Positions 444 to 34,382 of a stretch of 64,000 nt of DNA are shown here, piece by piece. A program made the translations under genes and the position numbers. The stretch is from NCBI GenBank assembly GCA_963847185.1, contig CAWJYV010000005.1, positions 1-64,000 of the forward strand. Direction: 5' to 3'. The notes below the pieces were generated by a model, which saw nothing but the letters and a program-made list of their open reading frames with translations, did no database searches and was not told where the DNA came from. The number at the start of each line of letters is the position of its first letter. The stretch's first letter is position 1. This stretch comes from an uncultured Methanosarcinaceae archaeon (GTDB lineage Archaea; Halobacteriota; Methanosarcinia; Methanosarcinales; Methanosarcinaceae).

Positions 444-1244
444 ATGACTGTTTTGAGTATTTTGAGTTGTAAAATACTTCAGGATGAAATAATTTGGCTT
501 ATTGTAAATGATTCTCAAATAAAGAGAATTCTAATTGTAGCAAATGGGAATATCTCCGAATTTATAGAAAAACTAGATGAACAGCATATCTGTTATGACA
601 TTGTTCCGTTCAAAAAGCTACCACAGGCACTTAATAATGTCGACAAGGATGAACTCGCTGTTGTAATTAACCTTATGGAACTTGGGCTTCATGCAGCACC
701 AAAAATATTGAAATCTGAAGTTTATCAAAATATCAGGGAAATGACACCATTCTCCAATGGAATACTCATTTTTTACGGTCTTTGTGGTAACGTTCTGGGC
801 AATGTGGAGGAAGACTTCTGCCTGGAAAAAGATAGTTGCACGGTGCGGATACTAAGGGATGACGAAAGAATCGTAGATGACTGCATCGGAGCAACGGTGG
901 GAGGTGGTGCAAACTACCTTAAATTGCTTAAAACCCACAGTAAAGAGCCTGCTTTCTTTTTTACACCTATGTATGCCAGTTCATGGAAAGAACTTTTAAA
1001 CATTAATAAACTTCATTCTAATCCTGAAAAGGCAATAAAAATGGCAAAAAAGATCAATAACTTAGCAGGATATTCAAGAGTTGCAAAAGTCAATACAGGT
1101 CTTACATATGTAAAGGACATCGATGCAAAGATTGAAGAATATGCTAAATTGTTTGGATATAGCATGTTCGAGATCAGTGGCAATCAGAAAGTATTCGAGA
1201 ATTGTTATCTCTCGATAAAAAATGAAATACATAATAACGATTAA
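444..1244 (+). CDS. DUF1638-domain protein
   Basis: 266-aa ORF with RBS-like GGGAG; motifs LGLH..P, FYGLCG and VDDCIG are typical of Methanosarcina DUF1638 proteins. Confidence 0.8.
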   Translation: MTVLSILSCKILQDEIIWLIVNDSQIKRILIVANGNISEFIEKLDEQHICYDIVPFKKLPQALNNVDKDELAVVINLMELGLHAAPKILKSEVYQNIREMTPFSNGILIFYGLCGNVLGNVEEDFCLEKDSCTVRILRDDERIVDDCIGATVGGGANYLKLLKTHSKEPAFFFTPMYASSWKELLNINKLHSNPEKAIKMAKKINNLAGYSRVAKVNTGLTYVKDIDAKIEEYAKLFGYSMFEISGNQKVFENCYLSIKNEIHNND

Positions 1245-1256
1245 TAAAAGCTAATT

Positions 1257-1310
1257 ATGCCGGTCTTAAGTATAGTTGCCTGTGAAATGCTTGAAGATGG
1301 ATTTAGATGA
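1257..1310 (+). pseudogene. N-terminal stub of a second DUF1638 paralog
   Basis: ATG CCG GTC TTA AGT ATA GTT GCC TGT GAA ATG CTT GAA GAT = MPVLSIVACEMLED, matching MTVLSILSCKILQD of the upstream gene; stops after 17 codons. Confidence 0.6.
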
Positions 1311-1313
1311 AAG

Positions 1314-2705
1314 TTATAATAACTTTTCAATTTTAAGTAGCTCATCGGCTTCTTCTTTACTTAAAATTCCTCTCATTATTACAATGTCCTTAACAGGCAT
1401 TTTCTTCTTCAGCACTTCTTTTGCGACTTCTGCAGCCTTAAGATACCCGATCTTTGGAGCAAGAAAAGTTACAAGAATAGGATTTAGCTCAAGGTAAGCT
1501 CTGCACCTATCTTCATGAGCCTTAATCCCTTCTACACAACGTTCCTGAAAAACTGGTAGATAATTCGTTAATAGGGAGATGGATACAAGAATATTGGAGG
1601 TCATTACAGGGGTCATAACATTTAGCTCGAGCTGCCCTGCCTGAGCTGCAAGAGCGACTGTTGTATCGTTTCCCACAATCTGGAAGCCTATCATGTCAAG
1701 ACATTCGGCCATTACAGGATTATATTTCCCTGGCATTATGGATGATCCCGGCTGTACAGCCGGAAGTTCAATTTCGGAAATTCCGGTGGTAGGGCCGGCA
1801 TTAAGGAGCCTGAGATCGTTAGCTATTCTTATAAGTTCAAGTGCAAGTTCCCGGAGAGATCCTGAAAAGGCTGCAAGCTGGGATCGGCTCTGCAAAGCTT
1901 CGAAACTGTCAACTGCCCTTTTAAAAGGAAGTTTGCAAAGCTCGGACAGTATTGAGATTACAAGTTCCTGATAACCCGGAAACGTATTTGCCCCTGTTCC
2001 GGTTGCAGTGCCTCCTAATGGAAGCTCGAGAAGATCATCTCTCCGTTCTTTTATCCTGCGCGAAGCCTTCAATAGCGCAAATGAATAAGCTCCGAACTCG
2101 TCACCAAGCGTAACAGGTATGGCATCCATAAGATGTGTCCGGCCTGATTTCGGGATTCCCGAAAATTCCTCTGCTTTTGCCCGAAAAGCTCCAGAAAGAG
2201 AAGAAAGTACATCTTGGAGCCTGTCAGCTGCAAAAATAATGGCTATGTAGGAGGCGGTTGGAAAAGTGTCATTAGTTGACTGAGCCTGATTCACGTGATC
2301 GTTAGGGCTCAGGAAAGTATAATCCCCTCTTTTCTGTCCCAGTATTTCGAGAGCGCGGTTAGCTAGAACCTCATTTATGTTCATATTAAAAGAAGTACCT
2401 GCGCCTGCCTGAAATACGTCCACAGGAAACTGGTCTGAATATCTTCCTCCGAGATCGTTAAGGACTTCCTCGGCTGCTACCACGATTGCATTACCTCTCT
2501 CTTGATCAAGACTTCCAAGCTCAATATTAGCAAGGGTTGCTGCCTTTTTTATTAGAATGTATGCCCTGACGAATTCCGGCCTTGCCATATGCCCGCTGAC
2601 CGGAAAATTAAAGATAGCCCGCTGGGTCTGGATGCCATAATAGGCATTTTCAGGGATTTCCATTTCTCCCAGGGAATCCCTCTCGATTCGGGTTTTCGGA
2701 GTAAT
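1314..2705 (-). CDS. aspA: Aspartate ammonia-lyase / class II fumarase family lyase (aspartase-like)
   Basis: Signature GSSIMPGKYNP; DVFQAGAGTSFNMN, QSTNDTFPT and GRTHLMDA. Conserved TRIERDSLG lies upstream of the 2663 ATG, so the probable start is ATT at 2705. Confidence 0.8.
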   Translation of the reverse strand: MTPKTRIERDSLGEMEIPENAYYGIQTQRAIFNFPVSGHMARPEFVRAYILIKKAATLANIELGSLDQERGNAIVVAAEEVLNDLGGRYSDQFPVDVFQAGAGTSFNMNINEVLANRALEILGQKRGDYTFLSPNDHVNQAQSTNDTFPTASYIAIIFAADRLQDVLSSLSGAFRAKAEEFSGIPKSGRTHLMDAIPVTLGDEFGAYSFALLKASRRIKERRDDLLELPLGGTATGTGANTFPGYQELVISILSELCKLPFKRAVDSFEALQSRSQLAAFSGSLRELALELIRIANDLRLLNAGPTTGISEIELPAVQPGSSIMPGKYNPVMAECLDMIGFQIVGNDTTVALAAQAGQLELNVMTPVMTSNILVSISLLTNYLPVFQERCVEGIKAHEDRCRAYLELNPILVTFLAPKIGYLKAAEVAKEVLKKKMPVKDIVIMRGILSKEEADELLKIEKLL

Positions 2706-2747
2706 AGACTCACCTCAGAAAATTATTATTCAAAAGCTTCAGAATAT

Positions 2748-3515
2748 TTACTCGGGTTCCTTTCTAAGTTCTTTGATTTCCCTTCTGGCCTTCCCGATTC
2801 CTTCAATAGGTGGAACACCTTTCGGGCAGACAGCCTTGCAGTTGGCATGAAACTTACAACCCCACCAGCCGAATTTGCTGTTAGCAAGCATGAGTCTCGA
2901 TTCCTTATCTGCCTCACGCGGATCAATATGAAATCTGTATAGCTTTGCAAGAGCAGCAGGGCCCAAAAATTCGTTTTCTTTTCCCGAGACCGGGCAGGAA
3001 CCCACACAGGCAGCGCAGAGTATGCAGTTTGTATACTTCTCAAGCTCATTTACCGATTCAGGCGTCATAAGCCACTCCTTTTCAGGGAGAGAGGAAGCTG
3101 GTTTTAATGTCGGCTCGACTGCCCTGTAGAACTCAAAGAATTTGTCCATATCCACAATGAGGTCCTTTACTTTAGGCAGAGAAGGGAGAGGTTCCACAAG
3201 GATCTCATTTTCAGGATCCCAGGAGATGGTATCTTCCATTCCCGGAAAAGGCTTCAGTTTTATATTCCCTTTACCTTTAAGAAGGGATTCTATCTGGACT
3301 CTGCAAGCAAGCCTTGGGATCTTATTAATCAGCATTGCGCAACTCCCGCAGACGGCACCCCTACAGGAATAGCGGAAGGCAAGGGAATCGTCGATCTCTT
3401 CCTGAATTTTGAACAGCGCGGAAAGGACCGTCATCCCTGATGAGGGTTCGATTTCAAATATGTCGTAATGGTAATCCCCGGTCTCCCTATCAAAGCGGAA
3501 TATCTTCAATTTCAT
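2748..3515 (-). CDS. sdhB: Succinate dehydrogenase/fumarate reductase iron-sulfur subunit
   Basis: SCRGAVCGSC...LAC (2Fe-2S), CILCAACVGSCP (4Fe-4S), CKFHANCKAVCP (3Fe-4S), FLGPAAL; start overlaps the flavoprotein stop. Confidence 0.9.
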   Translation of the reverse strand: MKLKIFRFDRETGDYHYDIFEIEPSSGMTVLSALFKIQEEIDDSLAFRYSCRGAVCGSCAMLINKIPRLACRVQIESLLKGKGNIKLKPFPGMEDTISWDPENEILVEPLPSLPKVKDLIVDMDKFFEFYRAVEPTLKPASSLPEKEWLMTPESVNELEKYTNCILCAACVGSCPVSGKENEFLGPAALAKLYRFHIDPREADKESRLMLANSKFGWWGCKFHANCKAVCPKGVPPIEGIGKARREIKELRKEPE

Positions 3516-5308
3516 CAGTACACGCGCTCCTTTACCGGGAATTTTCCGAGCCTTACGGGCAGAGATTCAAGAACAGGTTGTCTATCTTTGAGCCTGTAGA
3601 TTGTATGATATAGAAACTTTTCATCATCCCTTTCTGGATAATCAACCCTTGAATGAGATCCACGGCTCTCTTGCCTGGCAATAGCCCCCCTTGCAACAGC
3701 TTCTGCAATATCAAATAGGCCTTCGAGTTCAAGGGTATAGATAAGTGCATGATTGAATAGAGAAGACTTATTGTTTATATAAACTTCAGGATAAGTGGTT
3801 TTGAGTTCAAGGAGTTTTTTCAACCCTTTTTCCATCTTACTCCCTTCCCGAAAGACTCCGAAATACTCAAACATTGTTTTTTTCAGTTCATCCCTGAGAC
3901 TGTGCATCTTTACCCCGGATTTCCTGGCAAGCAGGGCTTTTATTCGTGAGTCTTCTGCTGACAGGCGTTTACGGACAGCCTTTTCAGCCCCCTTTCTATC
4001 CCAGCTTCCAGATGATGGAAAATTTTTCCCAATCTCCTGTCCAGCAAGCTTTCCAAAAACTACAGTCTCAAGCAGTGAATTACCCCCTAGGCGGTTTGCC
4101 CCATGCACGCTGACGCAGGAACATTCCCCTGCTGCATATAAGCCGGGCAGTTCAGTTGCAAGGTCATTTCCTGCAGCCACGCCTCCCATCGAATAGTGCT
4201 GGCCAGGTTGTACAGGAATTGGAGTTTCAACAGGGTCCACACCTGCAAAATCTATGGAAATTAGCCTTATCCCTGGAAGGCGTTCTGCAATTTTCTCCTT
4301 TTTCAGATGCCTGAGATCAAGGAGCACATAACCGCCTTCAAACCCCCTGCCTTCATCAATCTCCTGCTGTGCTGCCCTAGCAACTATATCCCTTGGTGCA
4401 AGTTCCATGGATTTTGGGGCATATTTCTCCATGAAACGTTCGTTTCTGCTGTTTAGAAGGTATCCTCCTTCCCCTCTAGCTCCTTCAGTGATAAGGATAT
4501 TCGTATCGTAAAGGGTAGTTGGGTGGAACTGCACAAATTCCATGTCTTTTAAAGGCACGCCTGCCCTGAGAGCCAGAGAAGCTCCATCTCCGGTATTAAT
4601 CAGGGAATTTGTTGAGCGGGCAAAAAGTCTCCCAAAACCCCCAGTAGCAAGTAGTAGAGAATAGCATGTGAAACCATGCAGGCTGCTGTCAGCGATATTT
4701 ACTGCAATACAGCCTGCACACCTTTTCGCTTTTCTGGAGCCTTTTTCAAAAGAATCATTTCCTACTTTTACCAAGGAGCTTACAAAGAATTCATCATAAA
4801 AGGTAAGTTTTCCCCCCTTTCCTTTTTCATTTTTCTCTCTGCCTACAAGCTGTTCGTAAAGAGTATGCAGAATGTTATGTCCCGTACGGTCTGCAGCATA
4901 GCAGGTTCTTGGAAACATCCCTCCTCCAAAAGACCTCTGGGCGATCCTGCCGTCTGGAAGCCGTGAAAAGACGGTTCCGAAATGTTCAAGTTCTATTATT
5001 GCAGCAGGCGCGTTTTTACACATGATTTCTACTGCATCCTGATCAGCCAGGTAGTCCGAACCCTTGACCGTATCAAATGCATGGTCTTCCCAGGAATCCG
5101 CAGCAGCAGCATTTCCAAGGGCTGCGTTTATCCCGCCTTGGGCTGAAACGGAATGGGAGCGGAGAGGATGAACCTTTGAAATAATAGCTGTATCTAACCC
5201 CTGATCTATAGTCTCAATTGCTGCACGAAGTCCGGTCAGCCCGGCCCCAACGATAATCACGTCATGTGAATGGATAGAATAGCCTGTTTCTGTTCCTTCG
5301 TCTTTCAA
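3515..5308 (-). CDS. sdhA: Succinate dehydrogenase/fumarate reductase flavoprotein subunit
   Basis: [16 protein letters not shown] (covalent FAD His), [45 protein letters not shown]. Confidence 0.92.
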
Positions 5309-23494: not shown

Positions 23495-26361
23495 AGTTGA
23501 ATAATACAGACTTTCTTATTCATTGATTGGAATAAATATAGGGCAACATTTCTCTTTTATTTCTTCTGGTTTAAGGTTTGTTAGGTCCTTTGCGTTTTCT
23601 TCATACATTAATGGTGAATATTTTTCTATAATTGAGCAATTTTTTCATTTTCAATTTTATTCGTAATCTATTCTTTCGTAGAATTTCAATAAATCTATTG
23701 ACTTCCTTATTAATTTTCTCGCTTTCTCTTTTTATGAGGGCTGATTGTTCTTCCGGCTCTTCTCCGTGAAGCTCTTTGATCAATGAAACCTTCTTATCAG
23801 TCAGAGTTTTTGCTCTCTCTAATATCTCTCGTTCTTCTATTATTGGCATCCACTTAGTGTCTATTGCCGCCTGTCCCTGAGCGATATCCCTGGCAGAATA
23901 AAATTCTGTATTTATTGAAGCAAGTAAAACAAATTGTTCGTAAATTCCTTCTATTGGTTCTTTGATAGCATTTTTTACTTGCTCCTTATGTGAGTTTTTG
24001 TCGAGAGTCAAAAGTATACCAGAAGAGCCACCGCTTATTTTATCTTCATACGGAAAAATTCCATTTGCCATTATGAATGCCTTATTACCTGGATATTGAG
24101 GATTATTTAGATCTCCTTCAGCGACTTGATAAAAACGTTTTGTGCCTGGATTGGTCTGTGGAACAAGCAATATATCACATTTTTCGATGAAACGTAGCCT
24201 TAATTTGTCAAGATATTCAAAACAGATAAGAATTCCAAGTTTCAATCTCTCACTTACTTTGAATATATATTTCAGTTCTCCACGATTCATGCATTCTTGT
24301 TTACCTTGAGATCTTCAAAATACTCACAAAACTCAATTATTCTAGTAACCGGCTTTTCTTGACCTGTAATTTTAAAAATAATTTGCTCTTCTCTTTTTAT
24401 TGGAATATAAGGAACAAATATTTCTTTTTTGCTGCGTAAAGGTTCATCAAATATCTTCTTTTCCCCTACTATTATTGTTAGTATGCTCTTTATTCTTTCC
24501 GGGTCGTTAAACTTTATTCTGAGTTTCCAGTTACGATATGATATTTCAGGATCAATTAACTCACATTCATTTTTGATTATAAATCTGATTTTTTCAAATA
24601 CTTTATTGTCTATCTCTTTTAAGTCAAGTGATTTTGGAAGTATAGAGCCTTCATGTTCTGATCTCTCATTATCTTCTATTCTTTTGTTAGGGTCGTCTAA
24701 AATTCCTGTATGAGAAGCATTTAATGTGAAATATTTTCCCCTGTATAATATGATGGCAACTTCAGGAGTTATACTACTAGGATCCTCTTAAAACTTTTCA
24801 GCAGGACACCTAAATTGTTAAGTGCTCCTCCTACAAATGATTGGTATACTGCGTTTTCTGGGTCATCATTTAAGAGTTTTTGTCCCATATCAAGTGCCAT
24901 TTCATACCTTTGTTTTGCCTCTTCGATGCGCCCCATCTTTCTAAGCAAGACACCTAAATTGTTAAGTGTCCCTCCTACATATGATTGGTAAGCGACATTT
25001 TCGGGGTCTGTTTTAAGGAGTTTTTGCCTCATTTCTAGCGCTTTTTCATACCTTTGTTTTGCCTCTTCGATGTGCCCAATCATTTTAAGCAAGATACCTA
25101 AATTATTGAGTGTTGTAGCCACATATGATTGGTACGTAACGTTTTCGGGGTCTGTTTTAAGGAGTTTTTGCCTCATTTCTAGCGCTTTTTCGTATTTGTC
25201 CTTAGCATCTTTGACACGCCGCATATCAGAAAGCAAGTTTCCTAAATTGTTGAGTGTTGTTCCTACGTATGATTGGTAAGCAACGTTATCAGGGTCGTTT
25301 TTGAGCAGTTTTTCATAAATCACTAGCGCCTTTTCGTACCTTTGTTTTGCCTCTTCGATGTGCCCCATCTTTTTAAGAAAGTTTCCTAAATTGTTAAGTG
25401 TCATTGCGACATCTGATAGATATACGATGTTTTCGGGGTCATCGTTTAGGAGTTTTTGTCTCATTTCTAGCGCCTTTTCGTATTTGACCTTAGCATCTTC
25501 GATGCACCCCATAGCAGAAAGCAAGACACCTAAATTGTTGAGCGCTGCTCTCACAAATGATTGATATACGATGTTATCAGGGTTGTTCAGAAGCAGTTTA
25601 TCATAAGTATAGAGCGCTTTTTCGTACTTTCCTTTCGCATCTTCAATGAGACCCATATGAGAAAGCAAGGCACCTAAATTGTTATGTGTCTCTGCGACAT
25701 CTGATTGATACACTGCGTTTTAGGGTCTGTTTTAAGTATTTTTTGTCTCATCTCTAGTGCTTTTTCGTAATCTGTCCTTAGCATCTTCGATACACCCATA
25801 TCAGAAAGCAAGGCACCTAAATTGTTGAGTGTCTCTGCGACGACTGATTGGTAAGCTACGTTATCTGGGTCGTTTGTGAGCAGTTTTTCATAAATGTTTA
25901 GCGCTTTTTCGTTATACTTTCTTTCATCCTTGATGCAAATTCGCGTATCAGAAAGCAAGGCACCTAAATTGTTGAGTGTTGTTCCCACATATGATTGGTA
26001 CACTACGTTATCAGGGTCGTTTTTGAGTAGTTAATTGAGAGAGTGAGTTCATAGAAATTTTGCCTGAAGAAACGTCCCATTGTAGAAAATATTCAAGGTG
26101 CCGATAGCCAGATCAGCTGAATATGATAGACTAGTCTTCAATTTTTGAGAGAAGCCTTCACAGCTTTAGGAAAGGATTATTTTAAGGCTTCTTCCACTAA
26201 TCGCATATTTATAGCTGGATGTAGAGAAAATAGCATCAGCTTCTCGCTTGAATTCTTCAGCTTTTGAAGCTTCTCTAAGGCTTCCTTATATTTGCTCTCT
26301 TGCATAGCTCTAAAGCTTCATTTAAGTGATCTACTGCTGAATCTCTCAAACCCTTGGACAT
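23495..26361 (-). pseudogene. Fragmented large TPR + carbon-nitrogen hydrolase (nitrilase-like) gene
   Basis: Start MSKGLRDSAVDHLNEA at 26361; frameshifted 48-aa TPR fragments (25674-26003, 24769-25713); C-terminal fragment with LGILICFEY and DILLVPQTN. Confidence 0.7.
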
Positions 26362-26513: not shown

Positions 26514-27305
26514 TTATGGTTGCCCAGGGTTCGATTTTAAGTTTTTTAACTTTTTCCGCGTGAAGCTGAGTTCTTCCTCGACCTTTTTGTTTTCGGGATC
26601 ACTTTTGTTCAGATCATCCAGGATTTCAAGGGCTTTTTCGAGATTCTTTTTTGCCTCTTCTTTTTGCCCTTTTTCATAAAACAGAATTCCAAGGTTCTGG
26701 AGGGCCATTACTTTGTCTGAGATGTGCTCCAGATCTCCAGGGTAATCATTGAGGAGCTTTTCATATATTTCGAGGGCTTTTTCGAGATTCTTTTTTGCTT
26801 CTTCGGTTTGGCCCATTTCTGCGAGCAGTTCTCCGAGATTATTGAGAGTGTTTCCGGCGTATGTCTGGCAAAAATCGTTCTCTGGCTGGGATTCGAGCCT
26901 TCTCTGGCAAATTTCGAGGCCTGTTTCATAGCTTTGTTTCGAGGTTTGGAAGTTGCCAATTCTCCGGAATATGTTGCCAAGGTTTCCGATGTTGTTCAGG
27001 TTTGCTTCGAGAATATCGAAGTAAAGTTCGTATTCCAAATCCTTATTGAGGAGTTCTTCGTTGGTTTTCAGGATAAAGGTATAGATTTCCAGGGCTTCCT
27101 TAAATCTGCTTAGAGATTCCAGGATTTTACCTTTCAATTCTAAAATATGTAATAAAACGGCTTCGTCTTTTGCTTCGTATGCAGCTTCTTCGGCTTTTTT
27201 AAGAGGTTCCAGGGCTTCTTCTAGCTTTCCTGTTTGAATCATGTCCAGTGATGCGTTGAAATGAATTACTGCTTCTCCTATCAACTGCTCGGATGTCTCG
27301 GCCAT
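26514..27305 (-). CDS. Tetratricopeptide repeat protein
   Basis: TLNNLGELL...EEAKKNLEKALEI repeats; likely start MAETSEQ. Confidence 0.85.
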   Translation of the reverse strand: MAETSEQLIGEAVIHFNASLDMIQTGKLEEALEPLKKAEEAAYEAKDEAVLLHILELKGKILESLSRFKEALEIYTFILKTNEELLNKDLEYELYFDILEANLNNIGNLGNIFRRIGNFQTSKQSYETGLEICQRRLESQPENDFCQTYAGNTLNNLGELLAEMGQTEEAKKNLEKALEIYEKLLNDYPGDLEHISDKVMALQNLGILFYEKGQKEEAKKNLEKALEILDDLNKSDPENKKVEEELSFTRKKLKNLKSNPGQP

Positions 27306-27354
27306 AATAAAAAAAGGTGCTTGCAACGTTTTAAGGCTATGTTTTAGGCAGTAT

Positions 27355-27460
27355 TTTTTCTTCATGTTGCTTTTTTTTTCATGTTGTTTTTTTTTTCATG
27401 TTGTTTTTTTTTTCATGTTGTTTTTTTCTTCATGTTGTTTTTTTCTTCATGCTGCTTTTT
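27355..27460. repeat. 17-bp tandem repeat x6 with poly-T tracts
   Basis: TCATG(T/C)TG recurs at 27362, 27379, 27396, 27413, 27430 and 27447. Confidence 0.85.
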
Positions 27461-27621: not shown

Positions 27622-28056
27622 ATGGGAACAGAGGGAGAAACAGATAGGGAAAGTCAGGGGAAGGATAGAATCGAGACTTCTAAAAAGAGCAGGCACGAAA
27701 AAACATACTTTATACTTGTGAGCATCTTTCTTGCAATTATTCTTTTTTACACTCTATATATCGGAGAGCTTCTTTGGGGCATAGTAATTGATGTCCTGGT
27801 TCTGAGGCTTTATTTCCTCATGAAGAGGGAAAGGCGCTATTTAGCCGAGTGCGACCAAAATGAAGATGAAGCCGGAATTCCGCATGATCCCGGGATGAAA
27901 AGAAAGATTTGGATTGTGAATATGCTAATCACCCTTTTTGTACTCGGGCTGGTTATTTATTCCTACTTTTCTTTCCAGTTCATATGGGGTGTCGTTGCGG
28001 GTTTGCTGATATTACTTTATATCCACATGCTACTGTTTACAAAAGACAACCTCTAA
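27622..28056 (+). CDS. Small membrane protein with two LonB-membrane-anchor-like hairpins
   Basis: Two hydrophobic hairpins each containing (L/I)WG; the second is 19/33 identical to the LonB anchor in this window. Confidence 0.7.
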   Translation: MGTEGETDRESQGKDRIETSKKSRHEKTYFILVSIFLAIILFYTLYIGELLWGIVIDVLVLRLYFLMKRERRYLAECDQNEDEAGIPHDPGMKRKIWIVNMLITLFVLGLVIYSYFSFQFIWGVVAGLLILLYIHMLLFTKDNL

Positions 28057-28238: not shown

Positions 28239-29021
28239 TCAGTTTTCTTGGAGGCTTTCCAGTCTTTTTCGAGTTAATTCAATGTCTCCTTTGATTTTTT
28301 CATTTTCAGGTTGTTGAGTAAGCAGTTTCTCCTGTATGGAAAGGGCTTTTTCGAGAGTTTGTTTTGAAGGGTAATTGTTTTCGGGGGATTGCTGAAGGAG
28401 GCAGTTTCCTAAATTGCTGAGCGCGACTGAGAGTTCTGCCTGATAGCCTGGGTTTTCGGGACTGTCTTCGAGGAGCTTTTCGTAGATTTCGATTGCTTCT
28501 TTCTGGATATTGCAGGCTTCTTCAAAAGAAGCAGTTTCGAGAAGAAGGGAGGCATAGTTGTTGAGATTTTCGCCGGCATAGGATTTGAAAACGGCATTTT
28601 TTGGATCCAGGACCATGAGATTTATGTATATTTCGCGGGCGCAGGAATAAGATTCGGCAGCTTTTGAATTTTCGCCTTTCTTTTTAAGCAGGTTTCCAAC
28701 ATTGCTCAGGGTTGTGGCCATATAATGCTGGTAGTTGTTGTTTTCGGGGTCGCTTTCGAGAAGCTCTTCACCTGCTACAAGAGCTTTTTCGTAAGTATTG
28801 AGGGCATCCTCGTATTTTGCTGCGGAATAAAAGATACCTCCGCGGGTGAAAAGAATATAGTACAGGGCGTCAGTAGACTTTGATTTTCTTGCCGAGCTTT
28901 CAGCTTTATCAAGAGTTTCAAGGGCTTTATCCAGGCTACCTTTCTTAATCTGGGATACGGCAGTATTGATTTGCTTCAGAAGGAGAAGATCTTTCACCTT
29001 GCTTCTGGACATTCTGAACAT
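28239..29021 (-). CDS. Tetratricopeptide repeat protein
   Basis: YQHYMATTLSNVGNLL, NLNNYASLL, ALSNLGNCL repeats. Confidence 0.85.
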   Translation of the reverse strand: MFRMSRSKVKDLLLLKQINTAVSQIKKGSLDKALETLDKAESSARKSKSTDALYYILFTRGGIFYSAAKYEDALNTYEKALVAGEELLESDPENNNYQHYMATTLSNVGNLLKKKGENSKAAESYSCAREIYINLMVLDPKNAVFKSYAGENLNNYASLLLETASFEEACNIQKEAIEIYEKLLEDSPENPGYQAELSVALSNLGNCLLQQSPENNYPSKQTLEKALSIQEKLLTQQPENEKIKGDIELTRKRLESLQEN

Positions 29022-29626: not shown

Positions 29627-31726
29627 ATGGTGTATAATAATAACCAGAACATAGACGAGTCTTCTGTAAAGACGGACGAATCCGCCCCAAAATCGGGCGA
29701 TCCTGTTCCGAACGTAGACGAGTCTGTGGCCGACCAGAGAAAGGATGAGTCCGGTGTGGGTATGACCGTGTCTGAATCCAATCCGGCAACGGCCGAGTCT
29801 GAATCCTATAATAATGATATGGATGAAGATATTGATATCGGGCTCCATTTCGAAGATACATCTAATATAGATGTCCCGAAACTTCTTATCGATCAGGTGC
29901 TGGGACAGGAGCATGCAGTCGAAGTCGTAAAAAAGGCAGCCAGCCAGAGACGACATATTATGATGATTGGGACACCAGGGACAGGAAAGTCTCTGCTTGC
30001 AAAGGCAATGGCCGAACTTCTTCCGAAGGAAGAACTCAAAGACATCCTTGTATATCCCAACATGGAAGATCTGAACAATCCCAAAATCAGAGAGGTTCCA
30101 GCCGGTAAGGGTAGAGAAATCGTTATGGCTCACAAGATGGAGGCAAGAAAGAAATCCCAGGCTCGGAACATGCTCATGATGCTCTTTGTAGTGGGTATTA
30201 TTGTTTATTCTTATTTTGTTTACCAATTGCTTTGGGGTGTCATTGCAGGTATCATGATTCTTATGTTAACCCGCCAGTTCCTTCCTAAAGAGGAAATGAT
30301 GATCCCTAAACTGGCCGTTTCCAATTATGACAAGGAGCATGCTCCCTATATTGATGCAACCGGAGCTCACGCAGGAGCTCTTCTTGGTGATGTCAGGCAC
30401 GATCCTTTCCAGTCCGGAGGACTTGAAACTCCTGCTCACGACAGGGTGGAAGCAGGAGATATTCACAAAGCGCATAAGGGTGTGCTTTTTATTGACGAGA
30501 TTAACACTCTCAGGCTGGAATCTCAGCAGAGTCTCCTGACTGCTCTTCAGGAAAAGGAATACCCTATTACAGGGCAGTCCGAAAGAAGTTCTGGAGCTCT
30601 TGTTAAAACCGAGCCTGTACCCTGTGACTTTATTATGGTCTCTGCAGGGAACCTGGATGCTGTGCAGAAGATGCACCCTGCACTCAGGTCAAGAATAAAA
30701 GGTTACGGATACGAAGTCTACATGCGAGACTCCATGGGAGACAGTCCTGAAAACCGGAATAAACTGGTCCGCTTTGTAGCTCAGGAAGTTGTCAGGGACG
30801 GACATATTCCTCACTTTGACGAAGGCGCAGTGCAGGAAGTAATCCGGGAAGCCAGAAGGCGGGCAGGCCGAAAAGGTCACCTCACACTTAAGCTCCGTGA
30901 CCTTGGCGGACTTGTGCGTGTGGCAGGAGATATCGCCCATTCAGATGGCGCTTCAATAACAACTGCAGAACACGTGCTTGCGGCAAAGAGAATTGCCAGG
31001 TCCATCGAACAGCAGCTTGCAGACAGCTATCTGGAACAGCGCAAAGAATACGAATCCTTCAGCAGAAAAGGCTCTGCTGTGGGCCGAGTCAACGGACTTG
31101 CAGTCATGGGTGGAGATTCCGGAATTGTGCTCCCCATCGTTTCAGAAGTTACGCCTGCACTCTCAGGGTCCGAAGGGCGCATTATCGCAACTGGTAAGCT
31201 AAAAACCATCGCAAAAGAAGCAGTTCAGAACGTTTCTGCCGTGATTAAGAACATGACAGGTACGGATATTTCCAAGCATGATGTCCACATCCAGTTCGTA
31301 GGTACCTATGAAGGTGTGGAAGGGGACAGTGCATCGGTCTCCATTGCAACAGCCGTTATATCTGCCATTGAAAGGATCCCTGTGGATCAGACTGTGGCAA
31401 TGACCGGTTCTCTTTCGGTCAGGGGAGATGTCCTGCCTGTAGGTGGAGTTACCTATAAGATCGAAGCTGCAGCCCAGGCCGGTTTGAAGAAAGTTATCAT
31501 CCCTAAGGCAAACGAAGCCGACGTTCTTATCGAAAAGGCATACAGAGACAAGATACAGATCATTCCTGTTTCTACTATTGCGGAAGTAATGGAACACAGC
31601 CTTGTGGGTCCAAGAAAGAACTCAATTATTGAAAGACTCAAAAACATTACAAAATTGAGTTTCGATATTCCTGAAGTTTCACCCGCTTCCGTACAGGCAA
31701 AAAACATTTTCGGGTGCAGGAACTAA
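29627..31726 (+). CDS. lonB: Archaeal membrane-anchored ATP-dependent protease LonB
   Basis: Walker A GTPGTGKS, TM insert, LFIDEIN, catalytic VEGDSAS and GGVTYKIEAA. Confidence 0.95.
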   Translation: MVYNNNQNIDESSVKTDESAPKSGDPVPNVDESVADQRKDESGVGMTVSESNPATAESESYNNDMDEDIDIGLHFEDTSNIDVPKLLIDQVLGQEHAVEVVKKAASQRRHIMMIGTPGTGKSLLAKAMAELLPKEELKDILVYPNMEDLNNPKIREVPAGKGREIVMAHKMEARKKSQARNMLMMLFVVGIIVYSYFVYQLLWGVIAGIMILMLTRQFLPKEEMMIPKLAVSNYDKEHAPYIDATGAHAGALLGDVRHDPFQSGGLETPAHDRVEAGDIHKAHKGVLFIDEINTLRLESQQSLLTALQEKEYPITGQSERSSGALVKTEPVPCDFIMVSAGNLDAVQKMHPALRSRIKGYGYEVYMRDSMGDSPENRNKLVRFVAQEVVRDGHIPHFDEGAVQEVIREARRRAGRKGHLTLKLRDLGGLVRVAGDIAHSDGASITTAEHVLAAKRIARSIEQQLADSYLEQRKEYESFSRKGSAVGRVNGLAVMGGDSGIVLPIVSEVTPALSGSEGRIIATGKLKTIAKEAVQNVSAVIKNMTGTDISKHDVHIQFVGTYEGVEGDSASVSIATAVISAIERIPVDQTVAMTGSLSVRGDVLPVGGVTYKIEAAAQAGLKKVIIPKANEADVLIEKAYRDKIQIIPVSTIAEVMEHSLVGPRKNSIIERLKNITKLSFDIPEVSPASVQAKNIFGCRN

Positions 31727-31728
31727 TC

Positions 31729-33069
31729 ATGACAGGTATTATGCAGGACATTAAGTTTTATGACTGCAGGATGATAGAGGGAAGTTCCACCTCTATAGTC
31801 CTTGATAACGGAAAGATCGAAGAAATTTCCAGAAACTTTTCACGGGGGGCTGGGGTAAGGGCTCTCTGTGGAGGTTCCTGGGGCTATACGGCTGTTGAAG
31901 GGGAAATAGACCTTAAACGTGGGGTAGAAGCTGCCTCAAAACTTGCTTTTTCTATGAATTCGAATACCCCTAAAGAAGAAGTAGAACTTGCAGCCTTGAA
32001 TTCTCCAGAGGTAAAAAATCTTCCTGAAATCAGGATAGATCCGAGAGATATTGCCATCGAGGAGAAAGTTGATCTTTTAAAGACCATTGAAGCCAGTGCG
32101 AACGTCAAAGGAGTCCACAGTACGAAAGTAATGTACCTGGAATCCGAGTTCAAAATCGAATACAGAAGCTCTGATGGTATTGAATGTGAATATGAACTTC
32201 TGAACGTTGGTTTTGCCGTTTCTGCTGTGGCTTCGGAGAACGGTTTGTACCAGGCAGGCAGGGAAAGCCGCTTTGGGTATGGTTATGAGCTTTTTGAGAA
32301 AGAAAACGTTCTCGAGCTCGCAGGCAGGGCAGGAAAAACTGCAATAGAACTCCTTAAAGCAAAAACTCCTAAAGGCGGAGAAATGCCGGTACTGCTTGAT
32401 CAGGAACTGGCTGGAGTCTTTGCTCATGAAGCTGTTGGGCATGCTTCGGAAGCCGATCTTGTCCTTGAGGGAGATTCCATTCTTGAAAACAGGATAGGAG
32501 AACAGATAGCATCTCCTCTTATTACGATTATTGATGATCCGACTCTACACGAGTTTGGGTTTTACCCGTTTGATGCCGAAGGGTCCCGATCAAGAAGGAC
32601 AGAGATCATTAGAGATGGAGTTTTAAACTCCTATCTTCATTCCCGGGAAACTGCAGCTAAACTCGGAGGAACGCCCGGAAACTGCAGAGCTCAGGGTTAT
32701 TCCATGCCCGTTGTCAGGATGAGCAATACCTTCATAGATAATGGTGATGCAAAATTTGAAGAAATGCTTGAGGACGTCAGGGATGGAATTTATCTTATAG
32801 GTTCCAGAGGCGGTCAGGTGAATACAGGGGAAGGGATTTTCCAGTTTAATGCTGAGAAAGGATATCTGATAAAGAATGGGGAACTTTCCGAGCTAATAAG
32901 GGATGTTTCCCTCTCAGGTAAGACCCTTGAGATTCTTAATCATGTGACTCTGGTGGGCAATGACCTGAAAATGACTTCAGGCAGATGTGGAAAAGCCGGG
33001 CAGCTTGTACCTGTATCAGATGGTTCTCCTCATATTTCCATTTCGAAAGCCCTTGTAGGAGGTGCCTGA
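31729..33069 (+). CDS. tldD: TldD metalloprotease
   Basis: HEAVGHASE, FDAEG, VRMSNT, CGKAGQLVPV. Confidence 0.9.
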   Translation: MTGIMQDIKFYDCRMIEGSSTSIVLDNGKIEEISRNFSRGAGVRALCGGSWGYTAVEGEIDLKRGVEAASKLAFSMNSNTPKEEVELAALNSPEVKNLPEIRIDPRDIAIEEKVDLLKTIEASANVKGVHSTKVMYLESEFKIEYRSSDGIECEYELLNVGFAVSAVASENGLYQAGRESRFGYGYELFEKENVLELAGRAGKTAIELLKAKTPKGGEMPVLLDQELAGVFAHEAVGHASEADLVLEGDSILENRIGEQIASPLITIIDDPTLHEFGFYPFDAEGSRSRRTEIIRDGVLNSYLHSRETAAKLGGTPGNCRAQGYSMPVVRMSNTFIDNGDAKFEEMLEDVRDGIYLIGSRGGQVNTGEGIFQFNAEKGYLIKNGELSELIRDVSLSGKTLEILNHVTLVGNDLKMTSGRCGKAGQLVPVSDGSPHISISKALVGGA

Positions 33070-33071
33070 AG

Positions 33072-34382
33072 ATGTACGAGCTTGCAAGAAAAGCCCTCAT
33101 TCTGGCAGAAAAAGCAGGGGCAGAAGAAGCTGAGATCTATTACAATTCAAGTCACTCAACGAGTGTTAATTTCAAAAAGGACGCTCTTGAGAGTGCCAAA
33201 GATCGTTTCTCAGAAGGCATCGGAATCCGGGCAATTGTGAATGGAGCAGTGGGATTTGCCAGCACGAATTCTGCACGAGATCTCGAAAATACTGTAGAAA
33301 TTGCAGTTGCTGAAGCCAGAATACGGGAAAACGATCCAGAATGGATTGGGCTTCCTTCCAATGGCAAATACCCTGTGGTCTCGGGAATTTTTGATAAAAA
33401 AGTTGAAGCTCTTGAACTTGAAAAGTGTATTGACTATGCAATGGATCTTGTCGAGGGCACAAAAGAGACTCCAGGTACACTTCCAACCTCTGGAGGGTTT
33501 AACAGGGGAAAAAGCAGGCGGCTTATCCTGAATACAAACGGGATTGAAATTGAAGAGGAATCCACAGCTATTTCCGGTTTTGTAGATGTTATTACTGTGA
33601 AAGGGCAAACTTCTACAGCATATGATTTTGCAGTTTCCAGGTCTCTTGATATTGATTTTTTTGCTATCGGGAAAAATGCATCAGAACTTGCCCTGAAGTC
33701 CAGTGGTGGAATTAAAATCGAGCCTCAAAAGACTGATGTAATCTTTCATCCTTTTGCCTTTTCAGATATTCTTGAAGAAGCTCTTGCCCCCTCCCTTGAT
33801 GCGGACAATGTCCAGAAGGGAAGATCAGGCCTGAAAGACAAAATAGGGGAAGAGCTGACGGTTCCTGACCTCTCGATCTACGACGATGGGCTTGTTGAAG
33901 CAGGAATTGAGACTTCAGCTTCGGATGACGAGGGAGTGCCCTCACAGCGTACAACTGTTATTGAGAATGGGATACTTGAAACGTATCTATATGACAGTTA
34001 TACGGCAGGTAAAGCAGGTGTGAAAAGCACAGGAAACGGCTCAAGGTCTTCTTATACAAGCCCACCTTCAGTAGGGCTCAGAAACTTCATCATCAAGTAT
34101 CCCAGAACAGATATTATCGCTGATACGGATTCCGGTATTTTCGTAAATACCATTATCGGAGCTCATACTGCAAATTCAATCTCAGGGGACTTCTCCGTAG
34201 AAGCCAGAAACTCTTTTACAATAAAGGATGGAGCTCTTGATAAGCCTGTAAAGTCTCTAATGATTTCGGGAAATGCTTTCGAACTCTTAAAGAGCATCAC
34301 AGGTGCAGGTTTTGATGTCAGGAAAGTGGGAGGTATAATTACGCCTTCTATACGGGTTTCGGATATGAGCGTAATCGGATAA
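33072..34382 (+). CDS. pmbA: TldE/PmbA family protein
   Basis: DDEGVP, TGNG.R, GAHTANSISGDFS, TPSIRV; lacks HExxxH. Confidence 0.88.
   Translation: MYELARKALILAEKAGAEEAEIYYNSSHSTSVNFKKDALESAKDRFSEGIGIRAIVNGAVGFASTNSARDLENTVEIAVAEARIRENDPEWIGLPSNGKYPVVSGIFDKKVEALELEKCIDYAMDLVEGTKETPGTLPTSGGFNRGKSRRLILNTNGIEIEEESTAISGFVDVITVKGQTSTAYDFAVSRSLDIDFFAIGKNASELALKSSGGIKIEPQKTDVIFHPFAFSDILEEALAPSLDADNVQKGRSGLKDKIGEELTVPDLSIYDDGLVEAGIETSASDDEGVPSQRTTVIENGILETYLYDSYTAGKAGVKSTGNGSRSSYTSPPSVGLRNFIIKYPRTDIIADTDSGIFVNTIIGAHTANSISGDFSVEARNSFTIKDGALDKPVKSLMISGNAFELLKSITGAGFDVRKVGGIITPSIRVSDMSVIG

What the first reader, a model, noticed from the sequence alone, without database searches (positions are those of the whole stretch)
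27622..28056. Stand-alone protein made of two LonB membrane-anchor modules, encoded next to lonB
Seen: NMLITLFVLGLVIYSYFSFQFIWGVVAGLLILL (27919-28017) aligns without gaps to the LonB membrane insert NMLMMLFVVGIIVYSYFVYQLLWGVIAGIMILM (30167-30265) at 19/33 identity, including the polar/aromatic YSYF..Q..WG. Many DNA differences are synonymous. The first half (KKS...Y...LLWGIV) is a more diverged copy. The gene lies 1.6 kb upstream of lonB, on the same strand, among TPR genes. Established: LonB is a hexamer anchored by this insert and is the archaeal counterpart of FtsH. Inference: an undescribed LonB adaptor, decoy or assembly modulator derived from the protease's own anchor, possibly working with the TPR proteins and TldDE.
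Basis: partly seen in the sequence, partly recalled or inferred. Interest (0 to 1): 0.8.

Follow-up and report, generated by a model that had tools for sequence, protein, structure and literature searches.

The report
Stand-alone double copy of LonB's membrane anchor
Methanosarcina archaea keep, just upstream of the gene for their membrane-bound Lon protease, a small four-helix membrane protein built from two copies of that protease's own membrane anchor; it may be the first candidate partner or regulator of this protease, but what it does is untested.

Summary
ORF 27622-28056 (+, 144 aa) is a real gene. It has orthologs in 26 of 28 genomes of three Methanosarcina-type genera; both misses lie at contig ends. 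Median dN/dS is 0.15.

It has four membrane helices arranged as two hairpins. Each hairpin is homologous to the membrane-anchoring hairpin inserted in LonB:
- hhalign gives 98.7% (E 4e-16) for the C-terminal hairpin and 98.1% (E 1e-13) for the N-terminal one.
- None of 5000 shuffles reaches the observed scores.
- A LonB-hairpin profile run over the whole 4-Mb genome finds only LonB and these two modules.

The block ORF→ ←TPR gene lonB→ is invariant in 26 of 26 genomes. It is missing upstream of lonB in six other genera.

A second, unrelated two-hairpin copy of LonB's anchor sits 178 nt upstream of lonB on a metagenome contig, so such proteins arose at least twice. LonB-like hairpins also occur fused to other domains in this family.

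Derivation from LonB is well supported. The function as a LonB partner or modulator is inferred only. The complex prediction gave no answer, RNA evidence is weak, and no paper was found. The protein is not a DUF1673 or PLDc_N member.

The parts
27622..28056 (+). Gene for the 144-aa four-helix membrane protein (two LonB-anchor-like hairpins)
   Evidence: ORF. 167 homologs at E<=0.01, all named ones from Methanosarcina. Orthologs in 26 genomes. Median dN/dS 0.154.
27622..27705 (+). Variable, charged N-terminal tail (res 1-28), predicted cytoplasmic
   Evidence: 7 K/R and 7 D/E. Poorly conserved, with indels. dN/dS 0.51.
27706..27819 (+). N hairpin (res 29-66): TM1, tight turn, TM2, with the motif F-Y-T-x-Y-I-G-(Q/E)-L-L-W-G-I-V-I-D
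   Evidence: hhalign vs LonB insert 98.1%, E 1.4e-13. Genome-wide profile hit 1.1e-6. dN/dS 0.127. Conserved intramembrane D57 and R62, which LonB lacks.
27820..27909 (+). Conserved about 30-aa loop (res 67-96), predicted cytoplasmic: basic ends and an acidic core (consensus N-E-x-E-A-G-T-P-H-D-P)
   Evidence: Consensus and near-invariant columns. 7 K/R. dN/dS 0.173.
27910..28038 (+). C hairpin (res 97-139): TM3, tight turn, TM4, with the motif I-Y-S-Y-F-x-x-Q-F-I-W-G-V-V-A-G
   Evidence: 19/33 identity to LonB. hhalign 98.7%, E 3.9e-16. Genome-wide profile hit 8.5e-12. dN/dS 0.121.
28239..29021 (-). TPR protein gene (260 aa), convergent with the ORF and divergent from lonB; always present together with the ORF
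   Evidence: Pfam TPR_12 and other TPR families. Present between ORF and lonB in 26 of 26 genomes. Orthologs at 66-80% identity in g1 8/8 and g13 6/6, and 0 of 46 genomes of other genera at E<=1e-25.
29627..31726 (+). lonB (699 aa), membrane-bound archaeal Lon protease
   Evidence: TIGR00764 at 955 bits against a cut-off of 516.6. Pfam Lon_C, LonB_AAA-LID and AAA families.
30140..30283 (+). LonB membrane-anchoring hairpin (res 172-219), the parent of both modules
   Evidence: 64-73% identical across genera, against 79-94% for the flanking ATPase parts.
26514..27365 (-). Upstream TPR gene (283 aa), divergent from the ORF; a variable neighbour
   Evidence: Pfam TPR. A close match (score 680 or more) in 9 of 25 other genomes, a weaker TPR relative in 6, none in 10.
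31714..34382 (+). tldD (31714-33069) and pmbA/tldE (start 32985 or 33072, end 34382), directly downstream of lonB
   Evidence: PmbA_TldD domains. The same lonB-tldD order on contig L099.

Best explanation
**What it is.** The gene encodes a real, lineage-specific membrane protein with its N and C termini in the cytoplasm. It has four helices arranged as two tight helical hairpins joined by a conserved cytoplasmic loop of about 30 residues.

**Origin.** Both hairpins descend from the membrane-anchoring hairpin that archaeal LonB carries between its Walker A and Walker B motifs.

**Proposed mechanism (inferred, not shown).** The hairpins keep the sequence that lets LonB anchors pack in the membrane. 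The small protein therefore packs against, or inserts among, the hairpins of the LonB hexamer. In doing so it would tune LonB's assembly, position or access for membrane substrates, much as a microprotein derived from its target's own interaction domain does. Its conserved acidic loop may dock the co-inherited TPR protein.

**Shown:** a real gene, homology of both hairpins to LonB, linkage to lonB, and recurrence of the design. **Inferred:** topology, contact with LonB, and the effect on LonB.
For: **Real gene under selection.**
- Orthologs in 26 of 28 genomes of genera g1, g13 and g2.
- dN/dS is 0.12-0.13 on both hairpins and 0.17 on the loop.

**Specific homology of both hairpins to LonB.**
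-.
- Every stand-alone hairpin is nearer to LonB than to the other stand-alone hairpins.

**LonB's hairpin is unusually conserved for an anchor.**
- 86% mean column identity in the family.
- 64-73% identity across genera.
- Recognisable in 299 of 301 genomes of the phylum.
- This points to a role beyond hydrophobic anchoring.

**Invariant gene block.**
- ORF-TPR-lonB occurs in 26 of 26 genomes, while the upstream neighbour varies.

**Independent second case.**
- P0128 (163 aa) consists of two LonB anchor modules, each 67% identical to the resident LonB.
- It lies 178 nt upstream of that lonB.
- Its reading frame is open at dS 0.6-0.7, and dN/dS is 0.28-0.40.

**RNA (weak).**
- Contigs from RNA libraries of two studies cover 27727-27938 and 27833-27977. 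DNA carry-over is not excluded.
Against: - No interaction evidence of any kind was obtained.
- The gene is a separate transcription unit from lonB; a convergent TPR gene lies between them.
- Linkage among close genera may be inherited from an origin by local duplication and need not reflect function.
- Other proteins carrying LonB-like hairpins lie far from lonB in their genomes (coordinates). This fits a reusable general anchor.
- The protein has acquired conserved intramembrane D57, R62 and H135, which LonB lacks. That suggests a new function of its own.
- The AlphaFold2 model is only moderate (pLDDT 71.6) and did not resolve the hairpin turns.
- The second case, P0128, is a singleton cluster seen on 2 contigs. 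It has no ortholog in 121 family genomes.
Confidence: 0.4

Rival explanations
1. It is an autonomous small membrane protein. The LonB hairpin is simply a self-inserting, self-associating membrane module that was copied and reused. The protein forms its own oligomer (three copies would give six hairpins) and does something unrelated to LonB. Its position next to lonB is a relic of its birth by local duplication.
For: - LonB-like hairpins are fused to unrelated parts in other proteins that lie far from lonB: types i, ii and iii and a 184-aa protein in another family of the phylum.
- It is a separate transcription unit.
- It has acquired conserved D57, R62 and H135, which LonB lacks.
- Synteny was only tested among close genera.
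Against: - The block with lonB is kept in 26 of 26 genomes at saturated dS (about 1.2), while the other flank varies.
- A second two-hairpin protein also sits next to a lonB.
- The hairpins keep LonB's polar and aromatic motif under dN/dS of about 0.12.
Confidence: 0.3
2. It is a membrane receptor for the neighbouring TPR protein. The conserved acidic cytoplasmic loop is the ligand of the TPR domain, and the hairpins only provide membrane attachment. This could place the TPR protein near LonB and may be combined with the main explanation.
For: - The TPR gene and the ORF share the same phyletic pattern and are adjacent in 26 of 26 genomes.
- Neither is found upstream of lonB in six other genera.
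- The loop is conserved, with dN/dS 0.17.
- That TPR domains bind short acidic peptides is general knowledge (recalled).
Against: - No test of binding was possible.
- TPR genes are abundant paralogs around this locus, so adjacency is weak evidence.
- G037 has the TPR gene, but no ORF remnant in the 406 nt before its contig ends.
Confidence: 0.15
3. It is a diverged member of the DUF1673 / PLDc_N-type small membrane proteins that are expanded in Methanosarcinaceae. Its likeness to LonB reflects an older shared hairpin and not derivation from LonB.
For: - Weak DUF1673 hits: 21 bits for the ORF, and 15 of 26 orthologs at E<=10.
- Small proteins of genera g10 and g4 (83-139 aa) match residues 11-116 at 33-40% identity. 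They carry PLDc_N above cut-off, and one carries DUF1673 above cut-off.
- The N module groups with these in a 44-column tree; no support values were printed.
Against: - All tested orthologs score below the DUF1673 cut-off (17-28.7 bits against 30.4).
- There is no MGWCP motif.
- The genuine DUF1673 genes of this genome (189-201 bits) lack the LonB-like motif.
- No PLDc_N hit in 26 of 26 orthologs, even at E<=10.
- Both modules are nearer to LonB than to those proteins.
Confidence: 0.08
4. It is a chance or compositional similarity between hydrophobic segments, or a non-coding ORF.
For: Membrane segments often give spurious matches. AlphaFold2 confidence is only moderate.
Against: - 0 of 5000 shuffles reach the observed scores.
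- The genome-wide profile search finds nothing else below E 0.1.
- dN/dS is 0.15 over 26 orthologs.
- 167 homologs were found.
Confidence: 0.02

Closest known systems
Membrane-anchoring (MA) insert of archaeal LonB (TIGR00764; described in PMC9569914 and PMC9263693, passages read)
   Same: Both hairpins are homologous to it (98-99% hhalign). By inference they share the tight-turn hairpin with both ends in the cytoplasm.
   Different: The protein has no ATPase or protease domain and carries two hairpins in tandem. It has a new conserved loop and new intramembrane D, R and H residues.
MicroProteins: small proteins derived from the interaction domain of a larger protein that act by joining its complexes (concept recalled; the search turned up no prokaryotic AAA+ protease example in its listing)
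   Same: It is a small paralog consisting only of a self-associating part of a multidomain oligomeric enzyme, and it is encoded beside the parent gene.
   Different: Heteromer formation and any inhibitory effect are untested. The protein is membrane-embedded and archaeal.
Membrane modulators of the bacterial AAA+ protease FtsH (HflK/C, YccA, SpoVM; recalled. YqgP as an FtsH adaptor is cited in the reference list of PMC9263693, seen)
   Same: They are candidate membrane partners of the membrane-bound AAA+ protease of the cell.
   Different: None of them derives from the protease's own anchor. No sequence relation to any of them came up in the family or fold-free searches run here.
[quoted passage not shown]
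   Same: There are weak profile hits. Some members in genera g10 and g4 carry a LonB-like first hairpin that resembles the N module.
   Different: Scores are below the family cut-offs, the MGWCP motif is absent, and there is no PLDc_N hit.
Stand-alone CoxII membrane hairpin before ctaA-ctaB
   Same: The design is the same: a stand-alone copy of the membrane hairpin of a larger membrane enzyme, encoded beside related genes.
   Different: It concerns a different enzyme, organism and fold context. That report is unchecked and was not examined here.

Membership tests
LonB MA-hairpin homologs (the hairpin module itself) | Significant profile similarity to the LonB insert hairpin, including the Y-S-(Y/F)-(F/Y)-x-x-Q-L-L-W-G core | tested here: met
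   hhalign gives 98.7% for the C module and 98.1% for the N module. Own-genome profile hits are 8.5e-12 and 1.1e-6.
LonB protease (TIGR00764 / MEROPS S16) | AAA+ ATPase module and Lon_C protease domain | tested here: not met
   The ORF has no AAA or Lon_C hit and no TIGR00764 hit at E<=0.1. The protein is 144 aa long.
DUF1673 (PF07895) | Score at or above the gathering cut-off of 30.4 bits | tested here: not met
   The ORF scores 21.0 bits and 17.9 bits in the genome scan. Orthologs score 20.7-28.7 bits. Best E-value among 26 orthologs is 1.3e-4.
DUF1673 (PF07895) | N-terminal MGWCP motif (PMC4158269) | tested here: not met
   The motif is absent from the ORF and from the 26 aligned orthologs. 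It is present in the genuine members of this genome.
PLDc_N (PF13396) | Pfam hit at or above 23.3 bits | tested here: not met
   No hit at E<=10 in any of the 26 orthologs. The related small proteins of g10 and g4 score 29.6-32.5 bits.
MicroProtein-type regulator | Derived from an interaction domain of a larger oligomeric protein | tested here: inconclusive
   Derivation from the LonB anchor is shown. That the anchor mediates subunit contacts is not known.
MicroProtein-type regulator | Forms mixed complexes with the parent protein and alters its activity | not testable with these tools
   This needs co-purification or a membrane interaction assay.

The most novel reading that the evidence does not exclude
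The protein is a trans-acting subunit of the LonB membrane ring. Its LonB-derived hairpins intercalate with or cap the twelve-helix anchor ring of the hexamer. This would control assembly or the lateral entry of membrane substrates, with the TPR protein docked on its loop as a substrate selector. It would be the first regulator known for archaeal LonB. It would also be a prokaryotic case of a protease regulated by a copy of its own anchor, a solution that evolved at least twice.
Probability: 0.25. Interest if true: 0.85.

Novelty: new variant of a known kind. Interest (0 to 1): 0.62.

Why it matters
LonB is the main membrane-bound ATP-dependent protease of archaea and is essential in Haloferax (PMC9263693, passages read).

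- **No partner known.** No partner or regulator acting through its membrane anchor turned up in the listings of the LonB searches or in the passages read of two LonB papers (PMC9263693, PMC9569914).
- **The anchor's role is open.** What the anchor does beyond tethering is not known.
- **A concrete handle.** A conserved protein made only of that anchor, present in genetically tractable Methanosarcina species, gives a testable way into both questions.
- **A wider pattern.** The LonB hairpin is a mobile module that has been copied into several other proteins of the family.

Tried and rejected
- **Complex prediction.** LonB MA region (A3) with the ORF (A1): the queue was full three times, then the job ran. 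The verdict was 'no answer', score 0.00, and controls were not run. This counts neither for nor against binding.
- **AlphaFold2 of the ORF alignment.** pLDDT 71.6, pTM 0.43, two long helices with no turn resolved. It was too weak to use and no fold search was made.
- **AlphaFold2 of the type-ii protein.** pLDDT 49. The C-terminal beta domain is not interpretable and no fold search was made.
- **ESM Atlas.** Best score 0.85, with no named family.
- **RNA evidence.** Only metatranscriptome contigs of related strains were available, and no pure-culture run. Parts of the stretch without cover say nothing.
- **Bacterial promoter and terminator scan.** Not applicable to archaea; it gave nothing useful.
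- **Literature: LonB membrane anchor and Methanosarcina LonB.** Nothing on stand-alone anchor proteins appeared in the listings.
- **Literature: DUF1673.** Two papers, both describing the family only as uncharacterised.
- **Literature: M. mazei locus tags near lonB (MM0128).** One search was swamped by mouse probe ids. One search gave 0 papers. The supplements of PMC4350412 gave 0 occurrences.
- **P0128 orthologs.** Sought in 121 family genomes and in the species-representative genomes; only LonB matched.
- **Weak own-genome hit on C4.** It is an unrelated 2-TM protein.
- **Co-variation between the ORF modules and the resident LonB hairpin.** Not attempted, because LonB hairpins of these genomes are 96% identical, which leaves no power.

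Full report
**1. What is there**

The ORF 27622..28056 (+) encodes 144 aa. Read directly from the sequence, it has:
- a charged N-terminal tail (res 1-28, 7 K/R);
- a 38-residue hydrophobic stretch broken by G-E (res 29-66);
- a 30-residue loop with 7 K/R and 7 D/E (res 67-96);
- a second hydrophobic stretch broken by S-F-Q (res 97-139);
- five terminal residues.

By the positive-inside rule, the tail, the loop and the C-terminus are cytoplasmic. Each hydrophobic stretch would then be a tight helical hairpin. This topology is inferred.

LonB (29627..31726, 699 aa) is a bona fide archaeal LonB: TIGR00764 at 955 bits against a cut-off of 516.6, plus Lon_C and LonB_AAA-LID. Its membrane-anchoring insert lies between the Walker motifs. 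Both of its ends must therefore be cytoplasmic (PMC9569914 and PMC9263693, passages read).

**2. Is the likeness more than chance?**

Yes.
- BLASTP gives E 2e-14 for the C half and 2e-7 for the N half.
- The 33-residue ungapped match is 19/33.
- None of 5000 shuffles of either module reaches the observed score. The z-scores are 15.7 and 8.6.

Shuffles are a weak control for membrane segments, so I also used real sequence. A profile of 26 distinct LonB inserts (A2) was searched over all six frames of the organism's own 4.04-Mb genome. It finds:
- LonB (9e-39);
- the C module (8.5e-12);
- the N module (1.1e-6);
- nothing else below E 0.1.

Profile-profile comparison of 26 orthologs (A1) with A2 gives:

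| Comparison | Probability | E-value |
|---|---|---|
| C half vs LonB | 98.7% | 3.9e-16 |
| N half vs LonB | 98.1% | 1.4e-13 |
| N half vs C half | 96.3% | 1.8e-9 |

At the DNA level only 67/99 bases agree. Ten of the 19 conserved residues use other codons. The likeness is therefore kept at the protein level and is not a recent gene conversion.

**3. Is it a real gene?**

Yes.
- The large protein collection holds 167 homologs at E<=0.01 among 232 candidates. The 120 listed are 112-202 aa long, and every named one is from Methanosarcina.
- Among 121 genomes of the family, a full-length ortholog occurs in 19 of 20 genomes of g1 (own genome included), 6 of 6 of g13 and 1 of 2 of g2.
- The two misses are G037 and G001. 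In G037 the contig ends 406 nt past the TPR gene, with no remnant of the ORF. In G001 the contig ends about 300 nt upstream of lonB.
- No full-length ortholog was found in the 13 other genera sampled.
- Over 1.84 billion representative proteins, the ortholog profile finds only 11 proteins at E<=1e-3. The family is narrow.

Nei-Gojobori dN/dS over the 26 orthologs (pairs with dS>0.05):

| Region | Median dN/dS |
|---|---|
| Whole protein | 0.154 |
| N hairpin | 0.127 |
| C hairpin | 0.121 |
| Loop | 0.173 |
| N-terminal tail | 0.51 |

The loop has a conserved core (consensus R-Y-F-R-E-C-D-L-N-E-x-E-A-G-T-P-H-D-P). The hairpins carry conserved polar residues that LonB lacks: D57 (nearly invariant), and the invariant R62 and H135.

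RNA evidence is weak. Contigs from RNA libraries of two studies cover 27727-27938 and 27833-27977. They come from related strains, and DNA carry-over is not excluded.

**4. Context**

- In all 26 genomes the order is ORF (+), a 254-318-aa TPR gene (-), then lonB (+). One genome has an extra 553-aa ORF inserted.
- The upstream neighbour varies. A close relative of the window's 26514-27365 TPR gene is present in 9 of 25 other genomes, a weaker TPR relative in 6, and none in 10.
- The TPR gene between the ORF and lonB has orthologs (66-80% identity) in 8 of 8 g1 and 6 of 6 g13 genomes sampled. It has none in 46 genomes of other genera at E<=1e-25.
- Six complete genomes of other genera have neither gene upstream of lonB.
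- lonB is followed by tldD and pmbA.
- The ORF lies between two minus-strand genes, so it is its own transcription unit.

**5. Where did it come from?**

LonB's hairpin is strongly conserved:
- 86% mean column identity in the family;
- 64-73% identity across genera, against 79-94% for the neighbouring ATPase parts;
- detectable in 299 of 301 genomes of the phylum.

Identity over 36 membrane columns:

| Module | vs Methanosarcina-type LonB | vs LonB of other genera |
|---|---|---|
| C module | 0.47 | 0.36 |
| N module | 0.38 | 0.42 |

N against C is only 0.27. The C module shares the lineage-specific states Y-S-Y-F and A-G. Both modules therefore look like offshoots of LonB, with the C module the younger one.

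Extra LonB-like hairpins are almost confined to this family. Genomes outside it nearly always give one match, which is LonB itself. Five exceptions were inspected. They are second Lon paralogs or weak hits, plus one 184-aa protein with an N-terminal LonB-like hairpin.

Within the family the hairpin is also found in three other kinds of protein:
- **Type i.** At the C-terminus of a 261-aa protein, together with LonB's soluble flank (TIGR00764 partial hit, 5e-7).
- **Type ii.** At the N-terminus of 154-206-aa proteins that have a small C-terminal domain.
- **Type iii.** As the first hairpin of 83-139-aa proteins that also carry PLDc_N. One of them carries DUF1673 above cut-off.

None of these lies near lonB (coordinates).

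**6. An independent replicate**

The representative search returned P0128 (163 aa).
- It has an N-terminal tail resembling that of LonB, followed by two LonB anchor modules. Each module keeps the soluble flank that precedes LonB's hairpin.
- On metagenome contig L099 it lies 178 nt upstream of lonB on the same strand, and lonB is followed by tldD.
- Both modules are 67% identical to the resident LonB (E 1e-29 and 4e-26).
- At dS 0.6-0.7 the frame is still open, and dN/dS is 0.28-0.40.
- Its hairpins group with its own LonB and not with the Methanosarcina protein (44 columns, no support values printed).

A two-hairpin, anchor-only protein beside lonB therefore arose at least twice.

The caveats are that P0128 is a singleton cluster seen on 2 contigs. 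It also has no ortholog in the 121 family genomes or in the species-representative genomes.

**7. What it is not**

- **Not DUF1673.** Scores are 17-28.7 bits against a cut-off of 30.4, and there is no MGWCP motif. The two genuine DUF1673 genes of this genome lack the LonB-like motif.
- **Not PLDc_N.** No hit in 26 of 26 orthologs at E<=10.
- **No NCBIfam family**.

The N module does resemble the first hairpin of the type-iii proteins, and the two share a 12-residue identical run. The ancestry of the N half may therefore pass through such a protein.

**8. How it most likely works**

The homology, the selection, the linkage and the recurrence are shown. Everything about function is inference.

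My preferred reading (0.4) is that hairpins which keep LonB's own conserved packing surface associate with the LonB anchor ring in the membrane. They would modulate assembly, position or substrate entry, and the acidic loop could serve as a docking site for the co-inherited TPR protein.

The main rival (0.3) is an autonomous membrane protein that merely reuses a good hairpin, with linkage left over from its birth. Two things favour this rival: the dispersed hairpin fusions, and the newly acquired D, R and H residues.

**9. Novelty**

- No paper on stand-alone LonB-anchor proteins appeared in the listings of the searches.
- Only passages of PMC9263693, PMC9569914, PMC4158269, PMC4390880 and PMC4350412 were read.
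- Supplements of other Methanosarcina omics papers were not examined. They may hold expression data for the orthologs.

The nearest concept is the microprotein, a small paralog of an interaction domain. The nearest functional analogs are the membrane modulators of FtsH. Both comparisons are recalled.

Noticed in passing
L099:483-974 (+), metagenome contig Ga0209386_1002302: P0128 is a second, independent stand-alone protein made of two LonB anchor modules. It has a LonB-like N-terminal tail and lies 178 nt upstream of lonB (1152-3173), which is followed by tldD (3177-4508).
   Followed up: yes
L040:989-1774 (-) (G062, genus g4): A 261-aa protein whose C-terminus carries LonB's soluble flank plus the hairpin (partial TIGR00764 hit, 5e-7). 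It lies far from that genome's lonB.
   Followed up: partly
L039:587-1183 (-), L041:965-1549 (+), L043:938-1558 (+), L042:953-1417 (+): Proteins of 154-206 aa in genera g13 and g1. They have an N-terminal LonB-like hairpin, a Ser/Glu/Gly-rich linker and a small C-terminal domain. There is no Pfam hit, and the AlphaFold2 model is too weak to interpret (pLDDT 49).
   Followed up: partly
L033-L038, L044 (genera g10, g4): Small proteins of 83-139 aa with a LonB-like first hairpin followed by a PLDc_N domain (29.6-32.5 bits). One also has the MGWCP N-terminus and scores above the DUF1673 cut-off. Several copies occur per genome.
   Followed up: partly
L116:134-688 (-) (G321, another family of the phylum): A 184-aa multi-helix membrane protein with an N-terminal LonB-like hairpin. 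It is the only such case seen outside Methanosarcinaceae among 301 genomes.
   Followed up: partly
P0127 (86 aa) and P0125 (169 aa): P0127 joins the N module directly to a piece of the LonB protease domain; this may be a deletion or an assembly chimera. P0125 keeps the N module and loop but then runs into unrelated sequence, which looks like a frameshifted copy.
   Followed up: no
window 24769-26003 (-): Two overlapping TPR reading frames (24769-25713 and 25674-26003) look like one TPR gene split by a frameshift or a mis-set start. They belong to a cluster of paralogous TPR genes.
   Followed up: no
window 31714-34382 (+); L099:3177-4508: tldD overlaps the end of lonB by 13 nt and is followed by pmbA. 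The same lonB-tldD order is seen on the unrelated contig L099, which suggests a conserved lonB-tldD(-pmbA) unit.
   Followed up: partly
L066 (G114:C1:2943460-2948980): A 553-aa ORF is inserted between the small gene and the TPR gene in one genome. It is probably a mobile element and was not identified.
   Followed up: no
G000:C7:636211-637701 (L085-L087): Two tandem genuine DUF1673 genes (189 and 201 bits), followed by a third fragment that contains three TGA stops.
   Followed up: partly
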